Source of the DNA: Paecilomyces variotii
Lineage: Eukaryota
Assembly (NCBI GenBank): GCA_004022145.1
Contig: RCNU01000012.1
Strand: one strand, 5' to 3'
Length of the DNA stretch: 64,000 nt
The notes beneath the pieces are model-generated. The model was not told the origin of the DNA and did no database searches. It saw nothing but the letters and a program-made list of their open reading frames with translations. Of this stretch, positions 24,361 through 64,000 are shown piece after piece. The stretch's first letter is position 1. The number at the start of each line of letters is the position of its first letter. A program made the position numbers and the translations under genes.

Positions 24361-26812
24361 ATGGGCCCGAAACAGAAAGGAGGAGGCTCATCCAAGAGCA
24401 ATTCGAGAAGTACTGGGGAGGAGGTGGAGGAATCGCTGCAGGCCGTTGTACGTTCTAGTTATCTCTTGATCTACGGATGACTCACTTGCAATGCGGGGCC
24501 GCTTTGGCTTTTTATTTATAAAGGACGAGTTGGTTAATCATATTGGAATGGCGACAGATCCTAGCCGATACGTTCGAAACGAGATTCCAGCCGTTCACAT
24601 TGGACACTCCTAGGGTACGTCTTTGCTGCTATTTGGAAGGGTGCTGCTATAATCCGAGAGGAAGGAGAGATCGGTTGTGAATATGGAGTCATCCTGATAA
24701 TTGAGAATCAGTGTCTGCTACCGCTCGCCAACACCCCGCTTATAGAGTACACTTTGGAGTTCCTCGCAAATGCTGGAGTCGAGGAGGTTTTCCTGTACGG
24801 AGGAGCGCATTCGGATAAGCTGGAGAAGTATCTCAAGTAGGTCGATCTGCAGGTTGGCGTGTGTCCATGTTGCACAGAGGCTGACGGCGCGCTTAGTGCT
24901 TCGAAATGGAGAGCTCCCTCTTCACCATTCAAGAAGTTGACCTTCCTCAAATCGACGTCAACGTCCGTCGGAGACGTTATGCGCGACCTGGACGGCAAGC
25001 ATCTCATCACCGGTGATTTTATTGTTGTTAGCGGAGATGTTATCAGCAACCTTCCCATTGAAGGTGCATTGGCTAAACATCGGGCACGTCGTGAGGCGGA
25101 CAAGAATGCTATCATGACTATGGTTCTTCGTGAAGCGGGCAGGAACCACAGGACCAAGGCTTCGACGATATCTCCTGTCTTCGTTATCGACCCGACAAAG
25201 GACCGGTGTCTGCATTACGAAGAGATCCAGCAACATTCAGAATCAGCCCCGTCGTACCTCACCATCGATTCGGAGATTCTGACGTCACATGCTGAAATTG
25301 ATATCCGTCAGGACCTGATCGACTGCAGCATTGATATCTGCACGCCAGACGTTCTGAGCCTGTGGTCGGACAGTTTCGACTATCAGATGCCCCGAAAGCA
25401 CTTCCTCTATGGTGTGCTGAAAGACTACGAGCTGAATGGAAAGACGATACACACCCACATTATCAAGGACCACTATGCAGCACGAGTACGGAACCTGAAG
25501 GCCTACGATGCTATCAGTAAGGATGTTGTTTCGAGATGGACATATCCGTTGTGCCCGGATACGAATCTCCTTCCGGGGCACACGTATGAGCTGAGAAGGG
25601 GGAACCTTTACCAGGAGCAAGGTGTCACGCTAGCCCGGTCCTGTGTGATCGGCCGTCGAACAGTCATCGGACAGGGTACCCGCATCGGAGACAGAACTTC
25701 TGTCAGTAACACGGTTCTGGGCAGGAATTGCAAGATTGGGAAGGATGTTATCCTCGACGGCGCGTATCTCTGGGACGGAGTTGTTGTTGGCGATGGCACA
25801 GAGATTCGCCAGGCTATTATAGCTGATGGAGCAACAGTGGGTAACAAGTGTAAGGTTGAGCAGGGCTCCTTGCTGTCATATGGGGTAAAGATTGCGGATG
25901 GCACTATTGTGCCTCAAGGAACACGGATCACGCGAGCGCAGAAGGCACCCGGAGCCTCGATTACGAATGATCCGAAGATTGTCGGCGACGGAGGAGAAGG
26001 CTACGAGTTTATTCATAGTGACGATGAAGATGACGAAGATGACGATGCTAGTGTGGCTTCGTCAGGACTCAGTATGAGAAATGCCTCTCTAGATATTCTG
26101 TTTTCGAAATTGCTAATGTTTTTCTACAGTCTACAATATGGCAAACCTTTCCTTGTCCCGAGAATCAATCTCGACGTTCTCTTCTGAGATGTCAGATTTC
26201 GTGGGCGCATCGCGGTCCGGCAGCTTTGGTACATCCTACTCGGACGAGGAGCGTGAAGATCACTTCCAGCATGATGCCTCTACCAGTGTCTACGATGGTC
26301 TGCGTGACGGCGTCACTGCAGATGTTGTACAGCTCGAGCTTGTCAGTCTGCGTATGAGTGCCAACGCATCTGAGCACCAGGTGCGACGAGCTGTGGTATC
26401 TGCTTTCATGAAGCGCATTCAACAGCTCATGGAAGAGGGCAAAGGTGCCGGTGACGCCGTCAAGGACGTTTTTACTAAGTACAAGGAGATTGTGGAACGC
26501 ATAATCTTCGACAAGGACAGCGACAAGAAGCCGGATCAGGTCGACCTGCTCCTGCTGATCCAGCAGGACCTTGTGCACCGTAACCGCGGTGAAACGGTGC
26601 TTCTGTTCACCTCCAAAGAGCTATACGATCTCGAAATCGTGGAGGAAGAAGCCTTTGAAGAATGGTGGGAGGATGAACGCTCCCAAAGCAGCGAAGAGCT
26701 CCGGAAGGTTCGTGCGCAGACGCAGCAGTTTGTTGACTGGCTGGCGAACGCATCAGAGGACGAGAGCGACGAGGAAGAAGACGAGGACGAGGAAGAGAGT
26801 GATGAGGAATGA
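24361..26812 (+). CDS. gcd6: Translation initiation factor eIF2B epsilon subunit
   Basis: LQAVILADTFETRFQPFTL..PRCLLPLANTPLIEYTLEFL, a hexapeptide beta-helix, and a C-terminal W2/HEAT domain (LYDLEIVEEEAFEEWW...FVDWLANA) with an acidic tail. Confidence 0.95.
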
Positions 26813-27775: not shown

Positions 27776-28813
27776 ATGCTAGGCAAAGTCGCGATCGAGG
27801 AGGCAATCAATCCTCCATCCGAACTGCACAAGCAAGCAGGGATGATCTCGCGTGACATCCATCCGGACCACGAAGACGAGTATCGAAAACAAGTAACCAG
27901 CATCGAGGACCGCGAGAGACGCGCTGCTCGAACCGGCGTCGGATACACGATCAATTCACACGTCTCGCCCGGCATCCAAGCCGAACGCGATCCAGCCGTC
28001 GCAGAGAAACTAGCCGTGGAAATCAACGATTGGATGTACAACCAGATCAAAGATCGGCGCGACACACAAGGAGCATTCGCAGCGCTATCGATGCATGATC
28101 CTGCGAATGCAGCAAAGGAGCTCCGTCGCTGCGTCACGCAGTACGGATTCCACGGGGCGTTGCTTAATAACTGGCAATTAGCAAATAACCCCGATGGAAG
28201 CATCAAGTTCCTCTTCTACGACCAGCCTGAATACGATATCTTCTGGGAAACACTCCAGGAGCTCGACGTACCTCTATACCTGCACCCAGCACCGCCCGCG
28301 GGACCTCTGCATGATATTCAATATGCCCAACGTCCGTATCTGATGGGGCCGCCGGCATCATTCAGTAACGATGTCAGTCTACATTTACTCGGTATGGTGA
28401 GCAATGGCGTCTTCGACCGCTTCCCCAAAGTTCAAGTAATCCTCGGCCATCTGGGGGAGCGAATCGTCTTCGACACATGGCGCATCAACCACTGGCTTGA
28501 AGACGTGAAGAAGCCGCGTGGTCTGAATAAGACCTGCAAGAAGACCATCAGACAGTACTTCCGGGATAACATCTGGGTGTCTACCTCGGGAAATTTCTCC
28601 ACTACATCGCTACAGTATGTGATAAGTATCGTTGGTGCGGATAGGGTTCTTTTTGCGGTGGATTATCCACAGGAAGCGTATGAGGATGCGTGTGGGTGGT
28701 TTGATAATGCGGAGATTAATCTGAGTGATAAGTTGAAGATTGGGAAAGAGAATGCGAAGAGGCTTTTTAGGTTGGGGAAGTATAGGGATTCGGAATCAGG
28801 TTGTGATTTTTAA
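27776..28813 (+). CDS. Amidohydrolase-2 family non-oxidative aromatic acid decarboxylase (2,3-dihydroxybenzoate/gamma-resorcylate/salicylate decarboxylase-like), intronless
   Basis: MLGKVAIEEA, FAALSMHDP..AA.ELRRCV..YGFHGAL, LDVPLYLHP, GVFDRFPK..ILGHLGE, WRINHW, STSGNFST, DRVLFAVDYP. TATATAAA at 27583-27590. Confidence 0.9.
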   Translation: MLGKVAIEEAINPPSELHKQAGMISRDIHPDHEDEYRKQVTSIEDRERRAARTGVGYTINSHVSPGIQAERDPAVAEKLAVEINDWMYNQIKDRRDTQGAFAALSMHDPANAAKELRRCVTQYGFHGALLNNWQLANNPDGSIKFLFYDQPEYDIFWETLQELDVPLYLHPAPPAGPLHDIQYAQRPYLMGPPASFSNDVSLHLLGMVSNGVFDRFPKVQVILGHLGERIVFDTWRINHWLEDVKKPRGLNKTCKKTIRQYFRDNIWVSTSGNFSTTSLQYVISIVGADRVLFAVDYPQEAYEDACGWFDNAEINLSDKLKIGKENAKRLFRLGKYRDSESGCDF

Positions 28814-29466
28814 TTAAGACACGTTTGATGGATGGGGATGTGTATGTACATACTAAGCATTGAGGGAGGTTTGGAACATGAGATGGGATCTTTAGATGGT
28901 ATAGAAATAGAACTGCTTCTCAATTTAGAGGAATGAAGATATACGTAGAAACGGAGCTCTGTTATTGACTATATGGATATTACGACTGTTTCTTTTGCGC
29001 AGCAGCTTAAGAGGAAAGCTACCTTGCGCATTTTCGTTTGAATGTGATATATGGCGTGAAGCCATAGCTGAGATTTTTTCTATTCTTATGGTAAGAGCTA
29101 TGGATGAGAATTGCGGAATCAGAGGCATCGATAACCATAGCCAGGCTTTCCCTGCAACCGCCTCCATATCTGATCATTTTAAGCCTGCTGGAGTTTGTCA
29201 AGGTGATACTCACCATTATCCGGGAAGAATAGACGGATACCCAGTCACGAGCTGATTCCTTTGCATGAGAGTCTGATGCCAATGTTTGATTCGCCAATGT
29301 GTTATGGAGGGATGGAATTTCTCATTAAATTTAATAGGTATACTGCGATTAGCAATTGAATAGTCGCCAACAAAGGAAGGTTATCTTCATATCTCTATCA
29401 GTCCCGACAAATAAATCTTTGGGGCACTACTATAGTAATGCATTACAGCTCCCCCGTCTCAATACT

Positions 29467-30903
29467 TTAGTCCTTGGTGATCGTGTCAAGGCCTAGTGCG
29501 ATCCGACACTCCTCCAAACTATTCCTTTCCATTTCTTCATACAGCAGAAACTCGTCCGATACGGTCGTTCCTAAATTCCGTTCAAAATTCTCTCGATCCG
29601 GTTTCCCTTGCCGCATAGCTGTTTCCCTCGTGTCCTTCTTCAGGTTGGATGTAAATATTCCGGCAGCGGAGACTGGTAGGAAGTCCTCGTAAGTGATGGG
29701 ATCAAAATCTAGGAGACGGTCTCTTATGAGTTCCGATACGCTCCTTGGGCTGCTATCTGCGTCTTTGGCATGACCTGATCGTTCCTCTCCTCTTGAGGTA
29801 AGTTTATATCGAACGAAAATAAGCCCCTCCGACCTGAGCTGAAGCCAGTTATCTGGGTAATTCTGGAACGAGCTTCTCAGGGCTCCATCAAAGCCATCTG
29901 AATCATTCTGTGCTTGCCGATACGCTTCAGAAAGAAGCTTGTCATAAAGCTCTCGTCCCTTGCGTGTGACTGCAGCTCCGCGCTGTTCAATCTCGCCGAA
30001 TCTGGCAGTGTGACTCCCATCGATCCAGGAGCTCTGTTGGTCAGAATAGAAACGGACACGCTCTTCCAGAGCTTTGAAGCTAGTCTGCCGCAGAAGGATC
30101 TCACACGTTCGCGGTGGAGGACCCTCGATCCGCTCTTTACTAGGAATTCCCCTTTCCACCATGGTCTTTTGGACGAGATCGATGTCCAGAGTCCGTGGCG
30201 TCAGATGATTAATGTGTGCACTCGGAAAAGAAGCGATGTCTGCAACTATTGGATGTTCTGCTTTCAACCGGTTGTATTCATCAATAGTGACTGTTGCAGC
30301 GGAGTGCCATTTGAAGGTCTTCAGCGCCTCGGAGAGCAGTTCGTCTGTCTCAGCTGCTGCGAGCCCATGGTTCCTCTCTGCCGTTTCGATGAGTTCAAGC
30401 AGGCGATCTGTGAAGAGTTTCCGTCTTGATAAAATGCCCCCAACCAGATTTCTGATTTCCTCCGACAAAAGGTCTTGTCTAAGAAGAGTGGTAAAAACAC
30501 GGAAGGGATGCTTGTTCAGAGCTGCAGTCTCCACTGGTCGAAAAGCAGTAGCATGGAGTGGAAATCCAACGACCGTAAGGTCATAATAACCCACAGGGTA
30601 CATCCCAAAGATTGCAAAAAGACGTCTAATGGTGGTAAGCTCGTATGGCGTGCCTAATCGAATCGCTCCATGTCTCTCCACTCGATGTCTCGGTGGCAGC
30701 TCGTACGGGGCCTCCGCGAGCGACGAACTTGCTCCATTTAGATGTGCTAATCGGTCTGAAACGACATTATCGTCGACCTCGTTGACAATTTCGATCAAAT
30801 CTGCGTAGAGAGGAACTTCCTGTTTGTACATGTCCGATAACGCGAGACAGAAACGAGCCCTGAGAGCATCGCGGTCCCAACTAGACGCCTGCGCATCTGC
30901 CAT
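29467..30903 (-). CDS. hglS: DUF1338 / YdcJ-type 2-oxoadipate dioxygenase-decarboxylase (hydroxyglutarate synthase, HglS-like), intronless
   Basis: LSDMYKQEVPLY, ERHGAIRLGT, YYDL...G.P.HATAFRP, PFRVFTTLLR, HINHLTPRTLDI, IEGPP.R...LLRQTSFKALEE, HTARFGEIEQRG, PITYEDFLPVSAAGIF.SNL are signature blocks of the proteobacterial YdcJ/HglS family. Confidence 0.9.
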   Translation of the reverse strand: MADAQASSWDRDALRARFCLALSDMYKQEVPLYADLIEIVNEVDDNVVSDRLAHLNGASSSLAEAPYELPPRHRVERHGAIRLGTPYELTTIRRLFAIFGMYPVGYYDLTVVGFPLHATAFRPVETAALNKHPFRVFTTLLRQDLLSEEIRNLVGGILSRRKLFTDRLLELIETAERNHGLAAAETDELLSEALKTFKWHSAATVTIDEYNRLKAEHPIVADIASFPSAHINHLTPRTLDIDLVQKTMVERGIPSKERIEGPPPRTCEILLRQTSFKALEERVRFYSDQQSSWIDGSHTARFGEIEQRGAAVTRKGRELYDKLLSEAYRQAQNDSDGFDGALRSSFQNYPDNWLQLRSEGLIFVRYKLTSRGEERSGHAKDADSSPRSVSELIRDRLLDFDPITYEDFLPVSAAGIFTSNLKKDTRETAMRQGKPDRENFERNLGTTVSDEFLLYEEMERNSLEECRIALGLDTITKD

Positions 30904-31110
30904 TATGTGTCAAAGCATGTTAGATCGTTGAATGAATGATGGCAAGTTTCTCACAAGCACCCGCTCATTTATATTCAAATGACAGCCCGAGAGTAGCCGT
31001 CCTGGTTATCCGATAAGGATGACATGGCGATGCACATCCCCGCTCGCTCCAATCGGATACAGGGATAAAACATGCAGTGTGTCATGCCTTCTTCCGAAAG
31101 TCCTGGGTGA

Positions 31111-31200
31111 TCCGACGGATCAAAGAGATGGCGTCGGATTGTCTAATTTTAGGCGATACATTGTTACTCCGGCGGATGAAGATAGGAACGATCCGATGGA
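31111..31200. promoter_or_regulatory. Three TCCRNYGGA palindromic elements (Zn2Cys6-type; identical to the yeast Lys14 UAS-LYS core) upstream of the hglS-like gene
   Basis: TCCGACGGA 31111-31119, TCCGGCGGA 31168-31176, TCCGATGGA 31192-31200. Minus-strand TATAAA at 30968-30973. Confidence 0.65.
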
Positions 31201-31509
31201 AGCAATCACCGGGCTAGCTAGTGTCAGTCGACACCTGCACGGCAGCCCTTCGGCATATTTCTTGAGGTTACAAGTTAATATATTCCTATCAGTGTTTGCC
31301 TATTGTCAGGATAGTTGACTTCCGTCTGAGCTTACTATCTGTATGCCTTGTCCCTCCAACGCTCCTTTACGTATGGTGGTGCGTATGCTCAACCAACCTC
31401 AGTCAACGACTATACAGGATGGCGTCATATTACAATGACAATAAATCCAAGCAACATGTATATTACCACCGATAGTATATGAAATAATTGTACAACCTAG
31501 AACTTCGTT

Positions 31510-31960
31510 CTATTTCTTCACTTCCCGATCTTCATGCCAATGCAAATCCTTCCCGACGAACCGCCATTTCCATGTACAGTAATTACTTTGTCCGAGCTGT
31601 TGTCCCAGATATAAAATGGTACCATGCTTGAGAACATCGACGCTAATATGGCAGCAAGGATGCCAAAAACAGTCACATAACCTGGCTCTTGGATCCAAGA
31701 GTTCGTGCAAAAGCTGAGAAGGAACCCGAATCTGGCTTCGACTAAGATAAGTATGTGCTAGTCTCCATAAAACAAGGTCGAGGACGTTACCTTCGAAAGC
31801 AGCCTGCATTACCACCGCCTCACCTGCAATAGGTCTGTAGGAGTCGAGAATGTGAACCAGACCGATATTGTTCGACTTCACTGCGGTGAAATTGACTGAT
31901 TTGTCGTCGGTAGTATAATGTATGCGAATCGCACCTCTATGTCCGACCGATACCCGATGA
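31510..31960 (-). pseudogene. Degenerate 3' remnant of a fungal MFS (DHA1/HOL1-like) transporter
   Basis: Minus strand reads NF...SNNIGLVHILDSYRPIAGEAVVMQAAFE, then intron 31790-31742, then ARFGFLLSFCTNSWIQEPGYVTVFGILAAI...PFYIW. After a 1-nt frameshift near 31605 it continues ...TWKWRFVGKDLHWHEDREV*. No intact 5' part was found. Confidence 0.7.
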
Positions 31961-33776
31961 CATACCGCGAGAAGGAGCACCTTATGGCATGATTTATGGA
32001 CTCGATATGATTAAGATCTACTTATGACCACTGTAGTGATTTCATTGTTTAATATTGAGAAACCAAGACGGTCTCAAGACAAGGGTGTTATCTCATAAGA
32101 TATGAAACTAGAAAGGACATCACAAGAATGTTTAGAAGGCGTCTTGAAAGAAAGATGGAGATTCCAGATAGTTGACTGTCCTTTCTATGCGCACGTAGTT
32201 CATTGTTGGCTTTCTCTAGTATAGAACAATCCCCGTCAGGTAAAATTACCCCGCATAGATAGAGAGCCGAGGATTTGCAGGTAGTCGTGCCTGCAGCCTG
32301 CAGTCGCGTTCCACTCCTCTTCTGCATGTTTATCCATTTTAGGAATTGCTAAGTTGCTAATAAATACTCTGTAGATAAATACGTTACTCTGGTTGACCAT
32401 CTGGGCATTCTAAGACTTTGATACTCATTGGGGCTGCTAAAGTTAGTTCAGGGTAAGGAATGGTGTTAGGGCCAACCCGTCTGAAGTCTGCTGGCGTTGA
32501 CGGTACTTATACGCAGAGTCCCTTTGTATGCTTCTTTGAAACGAGTATTATAGCTAGTCCTGCTAGGCCATTCTTTCTTCGACTGCAATATGGGTTGTCC
32601 AGTAATAATATATAATATATGATATGAATATACGCAAATAAGGCTGACAGACGGTAACAATACAGTAACTAATAATACCACTCGGTCACCCGCGCCTGTC
32701 ACGCTCTCTCTCCGCCACTGACATCTTCTTCCACAACCTTCAGCTTTCTGGCTGACAGAACTACTCTACTCTGCCATACCGATCTCATCCTCTTATGAGT
32801 GTACGTCCCCTCATATCTACTGTGAGCATCCTATCCTTCAAGTCAAGCCACTGTCTCTGTCCTGATGGTATTTATCTGAGTCGGTTTCTCTGCCTACTGA
32901 CATCATCCAGCGACAGGCACCGGCTAACTAACCACTGGCTCTCTCCCGTACCCGGTGCACTTGTCCCACTATCGTCTAAGAGCCGTCGTTCTCTCACTTA
33001 CCGCTCCACATCTCCTGCCTATCATCAGAAGGCGAACTCAGGCGGTAGAATTCCGGAATTCAGGAGTCACCATCGATGGTCGTTCCTCTCGTTCGCGACG
33101 CCCTTCGTTGCCCTCGTTCTTCTTAAGAGTATTTATCAGCCGTCTCGGCCCGCCTCCCGAAGTCTCCAGAAGACCTGACCTAATCTTACCAATCTCGATC
33201 CGCTTTAGGCCAAAGTTTGACGCAGTGCAGACCTTAGTTTAGAAGTGGCGGGACTTGCCTGGACGATCGATCACTTAGGTGCCTCCGCTATCGTGAACGT
33301 CAACCAACACCTATTCCCCTGATAGAAACGGCGAGTAGGAGCCTCCCCAGTGAGCTTTACTCGTCCTCCGGACCTCTTATTCCAGACCGGGATCATCCTT
33401 GGTGAGCTGTGACTTGTGTGTTGCTTGGGGGAAAGAAGGTCTCGACATCCGTCTCGAGGTCTTCCTTTTCCGATTCAGCACATATCGGCCATCTTGCCAC
33501 GGTCCCCCAACAGCCGTCACCACGCCTCCCCAAACGAGGAAGAGGAAGGCGCTCGAGGCGGCGATCGAGGAGAACGAGGTCAGCGCCGCCGCCCCTACTG
33601 CGGAGGCATCACGAAACACTGCGGGGCAGCGGTCGTCTAGCAAGCTACGTCGCACAAGCAACGCGGAGGACAAGGATAAGGGATCGATTTCCACAGCGGG
33701 TTCAGGGGACAACTTCCCGGTCTCACTGAGGCAGAGGGTGTCGGATCTTGCCACGCCCGCAACCACCGCCGGCAGC

Positions 33777-35515
33777 ATGGATTCGGACGATGATTTCATG
33801 AGCGATGCGTCGAGCCAGGGTTTCTTGGATACTCAGGGTAGCGATGATGAGAGTTTGGGTGATGGTAAGCTTGAGATCCCCCATTTAGTTCCGGTGGGGC
33901 TGCATGCCGGTTACAGAATACTTGCTGACGGCTGATTGCCTTTACAGATTTCGGAGACGACTTCGACGGAGGGTTTTCGAACGATAAGGACATTGTGAAG
34001 GAGTTAAAGAAGCCTTACGAGGTCGACTTCAGGGTTCTAAGTCCGGAAGATATCGAGGCGGAGCAGAATGTGCAGATCAACGAGGTTTCGGCCATACTAG
34101 GACTGCCTCCAGAGTCTTCTGCGATCCTGCTGCGATATGCCAGGTGGAACCGGGAGAAGTTGATAGAGAACTACATGGATCATCCGGAGGAGATCCTTGA
34201 GGAGGCAGGACTGGGCACAGTATCCGAGAGCACGCCTAAGGCGCAAGTCATCCCAGGCTTTATGTGCCAGATCTGTTGCGAGGACGGTGACGACCTTGAA
34301 ACCTACGCGATGCGATGCGGGCATCGGTTCTGTGTCGACTGCTACCGGCAGTATCTAGCACAGAAGATCAAAGAGGAGGGCGAGGCTGCAAGGATTGAGT
34401 GTCCACAAGATAACTGCCATCGTATTGTGGATTCAAAGTCTTTGGGCTTTCTTGTTACAGATGATCTCAAGGATCGGTATGTTTTTTCTTCGCAACTATC
34501 GGACGATAATGATGTGACGCTAACTTCCTTATCACAGATACCAGACTCTGCTCACTCGAACATACGTCGATGACAAAGAGAACCTGAAATGGTGTCCTGC
34601 ACCTAACTGCGAGTACGCGATTGATTGTCCTGTCAAGTCAAGAGATCTCAATAAGGTTGTCCCAACGGTACATTGTGCATGCAGGCATAGCTTCTGTTTC
34701 GGCTGCACTCTCAGTGATCACCAGCCGCCGCCTTGCTCTCTGGTCAAAATGTGGCTTAAGAAGTGCGAGGATGACTCAGAGACGGCAAACTGGATCTCAG
34801 CCAACACAAAAGAGTGCCCGAGATGCCACTCGACTATCGAGAAGAACGGGGGATGCAATCACATGACATGTCGAAAGTGTAAGCACGAGTTCTGTTGGAT
34901 GTGCATGGGTCTCTGGTCCGAGCATGGAACCAGCTGGTACAATTGTAATCGGTATGAGGAGAAGTCCGGGTCCGAAGCTCGCGATGCGCAAGCCAGATCA
35001 AGACAATCCTTGGAGCGATACCTCCATTACTACAACCGATATGCGAATCACGAGCAATCCGCCAAGCTCGATAAGGATCTTTACCTCAAGACGGAGAAGA
35101 AGATGACGAGTCTACAGTCGCAGTCGGGAATGTCCTGGATCGAGGTACAGTTTCTGGACACAGCGTCGCAGGCGCTCCAGCAGTGCCGACAGACGCTGAA
35201 GTGGACGTATGCTTTTGCTTACTATCTTGCACGAAACAACCTCACGGAGATCTTCGAAGATAACCAGAAGGATCTGGAGCTGGCAGTCGAAAGTCTGAGT
35301 GAGATGTTCGAGAAGCCTGTTCCGGAGCTTGCCTCTTTGAAAGTCGATATTCTCGATAAGACGGCGTACTGCCAGAAGCGGAGAGTGATTCTCCTTAGTG
35401 ATACTGCAGAGAACCTGAAGCATGGTAAGTGTTGTGCCCGTTTACTCATCTTGTCGCGCATGTGGCGAATGCTAACTTCTTTCCAGGCGAATGGACATTT
35501 AATGTGCCACTGTGA
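33777..35515 (+). CDS. Ariadne-family RBR (RING1-IBR-RING2) E3 ubiquitin ligase (Hel1/ARIH1-like); possible upstream ACG start at 33522
   Basis: Acidic N-terminus MDSDDDF. RING1 CQICC..CGHRFCVDC, IBR WCPAPNC, SETANWISANTKECPRCHSTIEKNGGCNHMTC, and Ariadne domain LERYLHYYNRY...LKWTYAFAYY. Three GT-AG introns. Confidence 0.95.
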
Positions 35516-36721
35516 CGGTACCGGGTTTTACAGTTCCCGTTGCCCAGGATACTCTGCAATGACATTTAAGACATGTCTGGTTTTTATCCGACCGTGTCAC
35601 AATCAATATACTATGTGACACATTACAATGTCAGTCTTACTGACCGACGACGACGCCATGACTACACTGCAAATGATTGATCTTTGTACCAGCCTAGGCA
35701 TAGCAAGGGCGTGACTCAGACTTGACGGCTGATCTACCAGCGAGGCCTGTGCATCATCAGCCTCCACTCTTGAGTATGTTCTCTCAGTTAACATGGTCCC
35801 GTCTACCAGCTCTCCTTTGTTTCTCCCGTGTCTTCATGCTTATAACTTTTTTCATTTCTACCTTTTTCCTTTTTTTCTGTGCATGTCCATACAGGGACCC
35901 ATGTCTGTGACTACACCTACCGCCTACCACAGCTTATCCTATAGTATAAGTATGATATGGGTCATCTTCACGCCCTGTACTGTATCCAGGTCATTTATCG
36001 GGTTCGAATCGAGAGCATATTCAATCAGCGGAGTTTTCTTCTAGCAAGCTAAACCGTTTCTTCTTCTCTTTCTGACCGGACTGTACATGAATGGCCACAT
36101 AGATAGCATAAGAAACCTAGATCATAATCTTGGCATGCGAACGGATATCTGCACTGTTGTCACTCTCGCCACCGTAGCTAATAATAACTGAAGTACTACA
36201 TAGCCCCAAGTATGATAGGAATAATAACAATAATATCAGACTATCACTGCAGCAGTTTCAAAGTCAAACCTAACTCTAATCCCACTTCAGCAGAACGCCA
36301 CATAAACCATGCATATTGCTAGCAGATTGTTATGCTCGGGACGGAAGCCCGAGACGGCCGGCATTTTGCCAGACTCGGAGGAAGTACGGGCCCAGTGAGG
36401 ACAAGGCTCGGGTTCGCGCGGTTCTTTTTTTTTTATGGGTCTAGAAGGGAATCCATTTGGTAACCAGTGCATTCCTTGTTCCTTTTTCGCTTGTCTTTTC
36501 TTTTTTGTGGTACTTTGCTTATTGGGATGAATCATGATTTGTGTGTAAAGGTGTTTATTCATAGTTGTTTCTGCGTTTTTATATGATATTGAATTTTAAG
36601 TTCTCCTGAGGAAAGAAAGAAAAGAAGTTAGCTGAGAGAATGCCGAGAATGCACCAAACGCAAAACAAAAAAAAAAAAAAAAAACCTGGGGAGCGTCCGT
36701 GGAGCTTCCGTGGCTTGACTG

Positions 36722-61106: not shown

Positions 61107-64000
61107 ATGGATCAGTTCGTTCAGCGCTTGTTGAACGACAAGCTATACGATAAGAGGAAACAAGGAGCTCTGGAGTACGCCGCATTTTGTTCTCCACCCT
61201 AGTGCAGCAGCTTTGAGACCTATCACTTACGTTATACATCCTTATTCAGGCTCGAGAGGATCGTTCGCGAAGCTGCGATAAAAGAAGACCATGAGAGAAT
61301 CCAGAAGATCATCGACCAGCTCTGCCACGACTATGCCTACGCCGTACACCAACCTCATGCCCGAAACGGCGGTCTGATCGGACTGGCCGCGGCCTCGATA
61401 GCATTGGGATCAGTGAGTGGATTGGATAATATACCGGGTCCTTATAGGGACATGAGACTGAGCTGTGCCATGCTAGGAAGGAGTAGCTCCTTATCTTCAA
61501 GAGATAGTGCCGCCTGTTCTGGCCTGTTTCACGGACCAGGATGCGCGCGTCAGGTACTATGCATGCGAAAGCATGTATAATATTGCGAAGGTGGCTAAGG
61601 GAGAGATTCTACTCTTCTTCAATGAGATTTTTGATGCGCTGTGCAAGGTGAGGATCTCGACGGGTCGTCTGTCTGCATACCGTTATACTCATGCGCTCGA
61701 GTGCTGCAGTTAGCTTCAGATTCGGAATTGTCCGTCAAGAATGGAGCAGAGCTTCTTGATCGCCTCGTAAAGGATATCGTGGCAGAATCCGCTGCTTCTT
61801 ACGTTTCTGTCCTAAATATTCCCGAGAAGAGTCTGCAGGATCCAGATGCAAGCTTGGAATCAGACGAACTATCGGCGGACCTGCCCACTGCTTTCTCCCT
61901 GGCTAAGTTCATACCACTCCTGAAGGAACGAATATATGTCATCAACCCTTTTACCCGCATGTTTCTTGTCTCATGGTTGACGCTGCTGGACACGATACCA
62001 GACTTGGAGCTGGTTAGCTACCTGCCCGCCTTCCTTGGCGGACTGATCAAGTTTCTAGGTGATCCGAACAAAGACGTCCATGTTGCTACCCAAAATCTTC
62101 TGGAGAGGTTCCTATCAGAGATCAAGCGCATCGCTCGTATTAAAAAGGGGATCGAAGAGAGTCGAAAGGGTCAAGAGAGCCAACACAATGCATCAGCTAC
62201 AAGTGACAGCGCCAGCATAGCACCTGATCAAGACCCTGACGCCGATAAGAGTGACAATGCCATTGTAGACTCTGACTCTGAAATCGACGATCACAACACA
62301 ACTACCGATGGGGATTGGATTCCAGGACAAGACGCAAACATTGAGTACCCTAAGATCCTGGAGATCCTGGTAGGATATGTCGACACGTCATTCGGTAAGT
62401 TCTATCAGGATTCACGTTGTTGTTGAATCTCCGCTGATATGTATATGGATATAGATGAAGAGATGCAATTGACTGCGCTTCGCTGGATAGATAGCTTCTT
62501 TGAAATCAGTCCCGAAGATATTCTGCAGTTCGTCCCGAGGCTTTTGACGCAGGTCCTCCCTGCTATGTCCAGCGGCTCAGACCAGGTGCGGCAGGCGGCG
62601 AACAGGGTCAACACATCCCTCATGGAGTATATTCTCTCTCTCCCTGATGAGGCCTCCCCTGAAGGCACTGGCCGGCAAGGCCCGACCTCCAAGGCACCTC
62701 CTCCAGTTGCTAAAGACGGTGGTGAGAAGAGATCGGGCACACCAAGCGGGCGACCATCTTCTGAGACAATCAGCATCGAAACAAAGGCTCAAGAATCGGG
62801 ACCGGAGACGAAAACTGAAGCGACGCCGCAAATCAGTCCTGCAGAAACTCCCCTTCCCCCGTCGGATCTCGATTACGCTGCGGCTGTGAATTCGCTGACC
62901 CTGCAATTCCTGAACGAGAACGAAGCCACTAGAGTCGCTGCTTTGTCATGGCTCATCATGCTACATCGGAAAGCGCCGCGAAAAGTTGTAGCCTTCAACG
63001 ATGGGACGTTTCCGGCTCTGCTCAAGACGCTGTCTGATCCTGCAGAAGCAGTGGTCACAAAGGATCTACAGCTCCTCTCTCAGATATCGAGAAACAGCGA
63101 AGACGGATACTTTACATCATTCATGGTGAATCTTCTTCAACTCTTTTCGACAGATAGGAGGCTGCTAGAGAATCGTGGAAATCTGATAATTCGCCAACTT
63201 TGCATGAACTTAAGTCCGGAGCGAATATACCGGACTTTGGCTGACTGTCTTGAAAAGGAAGAGGCATGTATCGATCTCTTTCTAGTAATCCATTTTCTAA
63301 CGATATCAGGATATCGAATTTGCCAGTATCATGGTTCAGAATCTGAACAACAACCTCATCACGGCACCTGAACTTACAGAGCTTAGGAAAAGATTGAGGA
63401 ACCTGGAGTCCAGAGTATGCTTGCTAAAGACACGTGTCTTCAGAATTGTCATACTAACCGAGACCACAGGAGGGCCAGATGTTTTTCGTTGCCTTATTCC
63501 GATCCTGGTGTCACAATGCGGTGTCGACATTCTCTCTGTGTCTTCTTGCACAAGCCTACGAACAGGCATATAATCTCCTTCAAGTCTTGTTAGTAGTTTC
63601 CGAGTGTGGATTGGATACATGCTTACTATTCTCTAGCGCGGAGCTCGAAATGACTGTCAACATACTAATCCAAATCGATAAACTGGTCCAACTGCTGGAG
63701 TCGCCAGTCTTCACCTGTGAGTACTCCTTTTTCTTTTCTTGTATGTCCATGAAAAGCAAACTAATTCGTCACAGACCTTCGCCTTCAGCTCCTGGAGCCT
63801 GAAAAGTACCCATATTTATACAAGTGTCTGTATGGAGTTCTCATGCTGCTGCCGCAAAGTTCGGCTTTCGCAGCTCTGAAGAACCGCCTGAACAGTGTGA
63901 GCAACATTGGGCTGCTCCATGCTGGACCCCGAGCGTACGTCAACCCTGCGATTAAGGCCCCATCCAGTTCTTCCCCGTCCCCCTTCAATAATCCTTTGAG
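61107..64000 (+). CDS. vac14: Vac14 PI(3,5)P2 regulatory complex scaffold (HEAT repeats), 3'-truncated
   Basis: LNDKLYDKRKQGALELE, ARNGGLIGLAA, DQDARVRYYACESMYNIAKV, SVKNGAELLDRLVKDIV, RGNLIIRQLC, QIDKLVQLLESPVF.YLRLQLLEP, LMLLPQSSAFAALKNRL. Confidence 0.96.

What the first reader, a model, noticed from the sequence alone, without database searches (positions are those of the whole stretch)
29467..31200. Bacterial-type HglS (2-oxoadipate to D-2-hydroxyglutarate) gene behind a triple Lys14-type TCCRNYGGA element: candidate fungal lysine/aminoadipate catabolic module
Seen: an intact, intronless DUF1338 ORF with a TATA box and three perfect TCCRNYGGA palindromes within 90 bp, 208-297 bp upstream of the ATG. 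Two spacing variants also occur (TCC-GATAA-GGA at 31009 and TCC-AATC-GGA at 31048). At equal base frequencies the motif occurs about once per 16 kb, so three in 90 bp is very unlikely by chance. Established: Pseudomonas YdcJ/HglS converts 2-oxoadipate to D-2-hydroxyglutarate in lysine catabolism. TCCRNYGGA is the core bound by S. cerevisiae Lys14, a Zn2Cys6 factor activated by alpha-aminoadipate semialdehyde. Fungi also make lysine through 2-oxoadipate. Inference: this fungus may run an HglS route to dispose of lysine, aminoadipate or tryptophan carbon. It may be gated by an aminoadipate-pathway-sensing Zn-cluster factor so that it does not drain lysine (or beta-lactam precursor) biosynthesis. 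I know of no description of such a circuit in filamentous fungi.
Basis: partly seen in the sequence, partly recalled or inferred. Interest (0 to 1): 0.85.

Follow-up and report, generated by a model that had tools for sequence, protein, structure and literature searches.

The report
Fungal HglS gene with clustered promoter palindromes
This is an ordinary, intact copy of a known enzyme gene (2-oxoadipate to 2-hydroxyglutarate) in the mould Paecilomyces variotii, and the three matching DNA palindromes in front of it may be a regulator's docking sites, but nothing ties them to a lysine sensor.

Summary
ORF 29467-30903 (-) is an intact, intronless 478-aa HglS/DUF1338 protein (Pfam PF07063, E 1e-148; P. 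putida HglS structure 6W1G, E 1e-126). The conserved His/His/Glu positions, the Arg74 equivalent and the Ser403 equivalent are all present. Three TCCRNYGGA sites lie 208-297 bp upstream, with TATAAA at -70.

The gene is not unusual. A 100% protein match names Paecilomyces variotii, and homologues occur across Pezizomycotina. Thompson et al. 2020 already noted fungal DUF1338 proteins and suggested a lysine-catabolic role.

The motif cluster is improbable for the pre-named motif (about 3e-4 per window). If any 4-base half-site palindrome is allowed, 5 of 60 simulated windows show an equal cluster (P about 0.08). The two "spacing variants" hold a CCAAT box and a GATA site. No lysine gene or Zn-cluster factor lies in the window. 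None of 4 distant eukaryote-like homologue loci carries the motif upstream.

The Lys14 link rests on motif resemblance alone, and PrtT of Aspergillus (CCGHCGG) fits one site equally well. My best reading is binding sites for an unidentified Zn2Cys6 factor, with chance as a serious rival. Earlier notes of this scan concern only E. coli ydcJ. Interest is low to moderate.

The parts
29467..30903 (-). HglS (2-oxoadipate dioxygenase/decarboxylase, DUF1338) coding sequence, 478 aa, no intron
   Evidence: colinear contigs from RNA libraries
30968..30973 (-). TATAAA at -70 from the ATG
   Evidence: sequence
31009..31019 (.). It holds an HGATAR (GATA-factor type) site at 31011-31016.
31048..31057 (.). 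It holds a CCAAT box at 31049-31053.
31108..31122 (.). Site 1, TCCGACGGA (31111-31119), inside a perfect 7+1+7 palindrome TGATCCGACGGATCA
   Evidence: the palindrome is read directly
31135..31139 (.). Lone CGGAT half-site. Together with the others this makes 7 ATCCG/CGGAT in 31008-31195, against 161 in the whole 64 kb.
31168..31176 (.). Site 2, TCCGGCGGA
31180..31185 (.). AGATAG (HGATAR) between sites 2 and 3
31192..31200 (.). Site 3, TCCGATGGA (one half-site is TGGA instead of CGGA)
31463..32195 (-). Upstream transcript in tandem orientation. It has an intron at 31732-31790 (GT..AG on the minus strand) and a poly(A) end at 31463, with no ORF above 39 aa. It bounds the HglS upstream region to 30904-31462.
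   Evidence: joint, poly-T loose end, records 7-9

Best explanation
The gene is the Paecilomyces variotii member of the fungal HglS family. HglS is an Fe(II)/O2 enzyme that decarboxylates and hydroxylates 2-oxoadipate to D-2-hydroxyglutarate. I infer that a D-2-hydroxyglutarate dehydrogenase then returns the carbon to 2-oxoglutarate, which gives the fungus an outlet for 2-oxoadipate from lysine, aminoadipate or tryptophan breakdown.

Its roughly 560-bp upstream region carries an ordinary fungal core: TATAAA at -70, CCAAT at -150, and four HGATAR sites. It also carries three everted-repeat palindromes, TCCG-N-(C/T)GGA, at -208 to -297, plus extra (A)TCCG half-sites.

The most likely reading is that these palindromes are docking sites for a dimeric Zn2Cys6 activator whose identity and inducer are unknown. 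That activator would act together with GATA-factor nitrogen control, as in other nitrogen-catabolic promoters of Eurotiales.

What is shown: the gene, its residues, the sites and their positions, and RNA-library contigs over the gene. What is inferred: enzyme activity, any binding of a factor to the sites, the inducer, and the nitrogen control.
For: Family and residues:
- PF07063 over the full profile, E 1.3e-148.
- 6W1G HglS, E 1.3e-126, over residues 11-473.
- H78, R82, H233, E304 and S412 are invariant in 120 of 120 listed fungal-type homologues. R82 aligns with Arg74, and V411/S412 align with Val402/Ser403, the residues named in PMC7286885.

Organism: a 100% identical protein carries the name Paecilomyces variotii.

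Transcription: contigs of a cDNA library (X16) lie colinear on 29095-30572. The same run shows a spliced joint and a poly-T loose end just upstream, so it does hold RNA of this fungus.

Sites: 3 of the window's 7 TCCRNYGGA lie within 90 bp. This is the only strict 4-mer half-site palindrome cluster in the real window. There are 7 ATCCG/CGGAT within 190 bp, against 161 in 64 kb. The cluster lies inside the 560 bp between the upstream transcript's poly(A) end and the ATG.

CCG/CGG half-sites as the Zn2Cys6 signature is established knowledge. PrtT's CCGHCGG shows that a CCG-N-CGG core is used in Eurotiales.
Against: - With every comparable palindrome allowed, 5 of 60 simulated windows show an equal cluster, P about 0.08. 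The loose TCC-N3-GGA form is unremarkable.
- 0 of 4 eukaryote-like homologue loci (L001, L002, L003, L005; 48-51% protein identity) carry TCCRNYGGA in up to 800 bp upstream. These are distant relatives, so the test is weak.
- No Zn2Cys6 gene and no lysine-pathway gene lies in the window.
- Four HGATAR sites in 560 bp is close to my own estimate of about 1.6 from base odds; no tool call computed that figure.
- The transcription start is not mapped. No binding, induction or enzyme data exist for any fungal HglS in the library searched.
Confidence: 0.5

Rival explanations
1. The three palindromes are a chance cluster with no regulatory role. The gene would then be driven by the TATA, CCAAT and GATA elements and general controls only.
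For: - Look-elsewhere control: 5 of 60 simulated windows hold an equal cluster.
- The loose form appears 4 times in the real window for unrelated triplets.
- The motif is absent upstream in 0 of 4 distant homologue loci.
- The window-wide count of 7 is not above the shuffle mean of 5.22.
Against: - For the pre-named motif the cluster probability is about 3e-4 per window.
- It sits in a short promoter at a typical UAS distance.
- Site 1 is a perfect 15-bp palindrome.
- The half-site ATCCG/CGGAT is about 14-fold denser here than in the window as a whole.
Confidence: 0.3
2. A Lys14-type Zn2Cys6 factor that senses alpha-aminoadipate semialdehyde binds the TCCRNYGGA sites and gates HglS, so that 2-oxoadipate is not drained from lysine biosynthesis.
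For: - All three sites fit the S. cerevisiae Lys14 core as quoted in PMC3601966.
- 2-oxoadipate is both a lysine-biosynthetic intermediate in fungi and the HglS substrate (established knowledge; PMC7286885), so some gating is plausible.
Against: - The evidence is a motif match only.
- The four C. albicans Lys14 homologues bind different sequences and none controls LYS genes (PMC4066398).
- Candida-clade LYS promoters lack ScLys14 sites (PMC4863609).
- Only 4 held papers combine Lys14, Aspergillus, lysine biosynthesis and transcription factor, and by their titles and abstract openings none describes a Lys14-type regulator in filamentous fungi.
- No such factor lies nearby.
- Lys14 activates biosynthesis, so a catabolic target would be a new role.
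- This genome's lysine genes could not be scanned because no genome is held.
Confidence: 0.07
3. The sites belong to a PrtT-like or other nitrogen/protein-utilisation Zn2Cys6 regulon of Eurotiales. HglS would then be switched on with peptidases and amino-acid catabolism during growth on protein.
For: - A. niger PrtT's deduced and ChIP-enriched core is CCGHCGG (PMC10781853; PMC8419926). Site 1 (CCGACGG) fits it.
- GATA-type sites are interleaved with the palindromes.
- The RNA-library contigs come from food-fermentation samples.
Against: - Sites 2 (CCGGCGG) and 3 (CCGATGG) do not fit CCGHCGG.
- The prtT family is described as particular to Aspergillus and Penicillium (PMC10781853). Whether P. 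variotii has it was not tested.
- Even in A. oryzae, the motif was 'not necessarily' found within 1000 bp upstream of all the genes that the paper classed as group 1.
Confidence: 0.1

Closest known systems
Pseudomonas putida HglS (PP_5260/YdcJ; PDB 6W1G/6W1H), hydroxyglutarate synthase
   Same: Same Pfam family over the full length. The alignment is end to end (E 1e-126). The conserved His/His/Glu positions, Arg74, Val402 and Ser403 are all matched.
   Different: The fungal proteins form their own clade, apart from the 20 metagenome rows presumed bacterial. The genomic context is housekeeping genes, not a lysine-catabolic operon. Activity is untested in any fungus.
Fungal DUF1338 proteins as surveyed by Thompson et al. 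2020 (PMC7286885)
   Same: This gene is one of them. The paper reports wide distribution in Ascomycota and Basidiomycota with the HHE triad and Arg conserved, and it raises a possible lysine-catabolic role.
   Different: The paper says nothing about promoters or regulators. Its Supplementary Table 1, which lists the fungal proteins, could not be seen.
S. cerevisiae Lys14 UAS (TCCRNYGGA)
   Same: All three sites match the nonamer core.
   Different: In yeast the element lies upstream of lysine-biosynthetic genes and responds to aminoadipate semialdehyde. Here it precedes a catabolic-type gene in a distant class of fungi, with no Lys14 orthologue shown and no second target promoter available.
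Aspergillus niger PrtT site CCGHCGG, and other everted CCG..CGG Zn2Cys6 sites (Pdr1/3 and NIT-4 TCCGCGGA, recalled from memory)
   Same: Everted CCG/CGG half-sites with zero or one base between them. Site 1 fits CCGHCGG.
   Different: Two of the three sites do not fit. The PDRE and NIT-4 cores lack the central base.

Membership tests
HglS / DUF1338 (PF07063) 2-oxoadipate dioxygenase/decarboxylase | Full-length match to the family profile | tested here: met
   PF07063, 495.9 bits, profile positions 1-386 of 386
HglS / DUF1338 (PF07063) 2-oxoadipate dioxygenase/decarboxylase | His-His-Glu metal triad | tested here: met
   H78, H233 and E304 align with the conserved H, H and E of 6W1G and are invariant in 120 of 120 homologues. 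That these three are the metal ligands is taken from the 'HHE triad' of PMC7286885 plus recalled residue numbers.
HglS / DUF1338 (PF07063) 2-oxoadipate dioxygenase/decarboxylase | Arg74 equivalent, which binds the distal carboxylate and sets 2-oxoadipate specificity | tested here: met
   R82 in ERHGAIR aligns with Arg74 and is present in 120 of 120 homologues
HglS / DUF1338 (PF07063) 2-oxoadipate dioxygenase/decarboxylase | Conversion of 2-oxoadipate to D-2-hydroxyglutarate with Fe(II) and O2 | not testable with these tools
   Needs an enzyme assay. No fungal assay was found in print.
Lys14-type lysine UAS | TCCRNYGGA core present | tested here: met
   Three sites at 31111, 31168 and 31192. 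The motif is as quoted in PMC3601966.
Lys14-type lysine UAS | Same element upstream of the organism's lysine-pathway genes (a regulon) | not testable with these tools
   No genome is held for this window. No lysine-pathway gene lies in the window.
Lys14-type lysine UAS | A Lys14 orthologue encoded by the organism | not tested
   No genome. There is no Zn2Cys6 signature in the window.
Lys14-type lysine UAS | Element conserved in orthologous promoters | tested here: inconclusive
   0 of 4 eukaryote-like homologue loci have it within up to 800 bp upstream. These are only 48-51% identical, and in L001 the gene sits in a different genomic place. Close relatives could not be fetched.
PrtT-type site (CCGHCGG) | Core CCGHCGG | tested here: inconclusive
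   1 of 3 sites fits (CCGACGG). CCGGCGG and CCGATGG do not.

The most novel reading that the evidence does not exclude
The triple TCCG-N-YGGA array is the response element of a so far unknown lysine/2-aminoadipate-responsive Zn2Cys6 regulator. This regulator switches on an HglS to D-2-hydroxyglutarate dehydrogenase shunt (2-oxoadipate to 2-oxoglutarate) in a fungus that also makes lysine through 2-oxoadipate. It would be the first genetically defined end of a fungal lysine-catabolic route together with its gate.
Probability: 0.1. Interest if true: 0.65.

Novelty: new member of a known kind. Interest (0 to 1): 0.3.

Why it matters
Fungal lysine breakdown beyond 2-oxoadipate is still not defined genetically, as Thompson et al. 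2020 state. I found no fungal HglS study in the held library. An HglS route matters for fungi that use 2-oxoadipate and 2-aminoadipate as precursors of lysine or beta-lactams.

This locus adds a concrete, testable promoter for that question. It contributes a candidate element, not a circuit. The gene itself is a routine member of a widespread family.

Tried and rejected
- Whole genome. None is held, so this fungus's lysine-pathway promoters, a Lys14 or PrtT orthologue and a second HglS copy could not be sought.
- Close orthologous promoters. 
- Strain variation as a test of constraint. The variant strain in X9, X15 and X17 shows 16 base changes and one 16-bp insertion, all between 31303 and 33464, and none in 28800-31302. 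The 3' intergenic stretch 28814-29466 is equally invariant, so this looks like a shared haplotype block. I do not count it as evidence of constraint on the sites.
- Transcription start. The cDNA run X16 has no contig over 30573-31462, and the random-primed runs X15 and X17 cover everything. Neither fixes a start site, and a part without cover proves nothing.
- Functional link to the neighbouring gene. The neighbour is a 2,3-dihydroxybenzoate decarboxylase (E 1e-121 to 7WJR), not ACMSD. It feeds the catechol/3-oxoadipate route, not 2-oxoadipate. No homologue of it lies beside HglS in 9 metagenome loci tested: the 4 eukaryote-like ones plus L004, L006, L037, L040 and L074. I rejected it as a partner.
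- The repeat finder on 30904-31470 reported nothing at seed 6 and length 12; the arms are too short for it.
- Neighbours of HglS in L003 and L005 (dienelactone hydrolase, NmrA-like, a class II tRNA-synthetase/DUF2156 fusion) give no pathway hint.
- Earlier scan notes. There are none for this genome and none for the words tried. By sequence, only E. coli ydcJ notes came up.

Full report
**What is in the sequence**

The interval holds one ATG-to-stop ORF on the minus strand, 29467-30903, 478 aa.
- It matches Pfam HGLS (PF07063, 2-oxoadipate dioxygenase/decarboxylase) over the whole profile at E 1.3e-148.
- It aligns end to end with the solved Pseudomonas putida hydroxyglutarate synthase (6W1G, E 1.3e-126) and with 2RJB (E 4e-121).
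- In that alignment the query's ERHGAIR, HINH, FGEIEQ and FLPVS blocks match the enzyme's. R82 falls on Arg74, and V411/S412 fall on Val402/Ser403. These are the substrate-contact residues named in Thompson et al. 2020 (PMC7286885, passages read).
- H78, R82, H233, E304 and S412 are invariant in 120 of 120 listed homologues. That H78, H233 and E304 are the metal ligands follows from the paper's "HHE triad" and from residue numbers that I recall. The paper passages I read do not give those numbers.

**The motif**

TCCRNYGGA occurs 7 times in the window, against a shuffle mean of 5.22. Three of the 7 lie at 31111 (TCCGACGGA), 31168 (TCCGGCGGA) and 31192 (TCCGATGGA), which is 208-297 bp from the ATG.
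- Site 1 sits in a perfect 7+1+7 palindrome, TGATCCGACGGATCA, at 31108-31122 (read).
- The half-site ATCCG/CGGAT occurs 7 times in 31008-31195, against 161 times in 64 kb.
- TATAAA lies at -70.
- The two "spacing variants" exist, but each contains a better-known element. TCCAATCGGA holds a CCAAT box at -150, and TCCGATAAGGA holds an HGATAR site at -113. A further HGATAR (AGATAG, 31180-31185) lies between sites 2 and 3.

**Is it more than chance?**

- For the motif named in advance, yes. The Poisson probability for a given 90 bp is 1.6e-7, or about 3e-4 for the window.
- The motif was probably noticed first and named afterwards, so I ran look-elsewhere controls.
  - Allowing any trinucleotide palindrome at spacing 0-6, three copies in 90 bp occur 4 times in the real window and about 0.9 times per simulated window over 20 simulations.
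  - With 4-base half-sites (two perfect copies plus one with at most one mismatch), the real window has only this cluster, and 5 of 60 simulated windows have at least one.
- The cluster is therefore suggestive (P about 0.08 without a prior), not compelling. Its place in a short promoter and its CCG/CGG make-up, which is typical of Zn2Cys6 sites, raise the odds somewhat.

**Whose gene, and how common**

A 100% identical protein is named Paecilomyces variotii, and P. lecythidis has an 89% identical one. More than a hundred clusters from Aspergillus, Penicillium, Talaromyces, Fusarium, Exophiala and others follow at 50-60% identity, and many are already labelled 2-oxoadipate dioxygenase/decarboxylase.

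I built a tree of 60 rows: 38 from the list, plus 21 of 22 metagenome translations chosen (one was dropped for an internal stop), plus L001's protein.
- A 100% SH-aLRT branch splits 20 metagenome rows, presumed bacterial, from the other 40 rows. Those 40 are the 39 fungal-list rows and L004, which is long-branched and sits as their sister.
- The Aspergillus/Penicillium proteins form one long-stemmed clade (100%).
- The Paecilomyces group lies in the other fungal assemblage (92%).

There is no sign of a recent bacterial import. Thompson et al. [quoted passage not shown] I could not see their supplementary table. Searches for HglS/DUF1338/PF07063 found 18 and 14 papers. By their listed titles and abstract openings, none is a fungal functional study.

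**Surroundings**

The window is a run of housekeeping genes:
- an MCRA-family protein, SprT-like, Mog1, HAUS1, COG6 and NIF3;
- eIF2B-epsilon (24841-26812);
- a 2,3-dihydroxybenzoate decarboxylase (27776-28813, convergent with HglS; E 1e-121 to 7WJR);
- then HglS, an Ariadne-type E3 ligase (33354-35618), an AAA ATPase, mitoribosomal S17, Rad54 and Vac14.

No six-frame Zn2Cys6 signature exists in the 64 kb. "Module" is therefore not apt: this is a single gene.

**RNA-library contigs**

- The cDNA run X16 lays colinear contigs on 29095-30572.
- Just upstream, the same run shows a 59-base joint at 31732-31790, whose ends read GT..AG on the minus strand, and a poly-T loose end before 31463.
- This marks a spliced, polyadenylated minus-strand transcript that ends at 31463. 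It has no ORF above 39 aa.
- It limits the HglS upstream region to 30904-31462, with the palindromes in the middle. The cluster is therefore placed to serve HglS rather than a divergent gene.

**Orthologous promoters**

Of the 80 metagenome loci, L001, L002, L003 and L005 look eukaryotic. None has TCCRNYGGA in up to 800 bp upstream. They are only 48-51% identical, and L001 is not syntenic, so this is weak evidence against.

L001 did give a side result. Its HglS lies 900 bp downstream of a Zn2Cys6/Fungal_trans gene. The named homologues of that gene are TamA/"OTam"/DAL81. P. variotii's TamA-like protein (P0197, 62% identity) is not in this window.

**The Lys14 reading**

- The nonamer is indeed the reported S. 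cerevisiae Lys14 site (quoted in PMC3601966). I did not see Becker et al. 1998 itself.
- The four C. albicans homologues bind different sequences and arrangements, and none controls lysine genes (PMC4066398). Candida-clade LYS promoters lack ScLys14 sites (PMC4863609).
- Only 4 held papers combine Lys14, Aspergillus, lysine biosynthesis and transcription factor. By their titles and abstract openings, none describes such a factor in filamentous fungi.
- In Eurotiales, PrtT has the core CCGHCGG, which fits site 1 but not sites 2 and 3.
- The motif class is thus not diagnostic of any one factor.

**Verdict**

- Gene: a routine, intact member of the known fungal HglS family, covered by contigs of RNA libraries.
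- Element: real, clustered, and plausibly an array of Zn2Cys6 sites beside CCAAT, GATA and TATA elements. It is statistically modest, unconfirmed by comparison, and not tied to lysine sensing.

I put about 0.5 on functional sites of an unidentified Zn2Cys6 factor, 0.3 on chance, 0.1 on a PrtT-like regulon and 0.07 on the Lys14-type model.

Noticed in passing
window 31463-32195 (-): A spliced (59-nt GT..AG intron at 31732-31790), polyadenylated transcript with no ORF above 39 aa lies in tandem upstream of HglS. Its 5' side faces the Ariadne gene, whose RNA contig starts by 32847, so it may be a divergent by-product of that promoter. An A-rich loose end behind 32195 is unexplained.
   Followed up: partly
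L001 1030-3105 (+) and 4013-5434 (+); In a Penicillium-like contig, HglS lies directly downstream of the TamA/Dal81 ('OTam') nitrogen-regulator gene. P. variotii's copy is elsewhere. Whether the linkage means anything is open.
   Followed up: partly
window 29467-30903 (tree): The P. variotii protein is only about 53% identical to Aspergillus and Penicillium HglS, yet 57-60% identical to Leotiomycete, Sordariomycete and Chaetothyriales ones. It falls outside the long-stemmed Aspergillus/Penicillium clade. The cause could be two old paralogues or fast evolution in Aspergillaceae.
   Followed up: partly
window 27776-28813 (+): An intact 2,3-dihydroxybenzoate decarboxylase gene (E 1e-121 to PDB 7WJR) is convergent with HglS. 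It belongs to aromatic catabolism, and I found no link to 2-oxoadipate.
   Followed up: yes
window 31303-33464: The variant strain in runs X9, X15 and X17 differs at 16 positions and by a 16-bp insertion behind 31382, all in this stretch and none in 28800-31302. This looks like a haplotype boundary about 400 bp upstream of HglS.
   Followed up: partly
window 4351-4400, 32546-32618, 62650-62692: Three other triple short-palindrome clusters were flagged by the look-elsewhere scan: TTC-N3-GAA, TAT-N-ATA and AGG-N5-CCT.
   Followed up: no
L005 5975-8809 (-): A class II aminoacyl-tRNA synthetase fused to a DUF2156/LPG_synthase_C domain lies next to an HglS homologue. It resembles the fungal sterol-aspartylating ErdS type (name recalled from memory), which is why I count L005 as fungal.
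   Followed up: no
window 102-1223 (+): The C-terminal part of an MCRA-family (oleate hydratase type) protein lies at the window's start.
   Followed up: no
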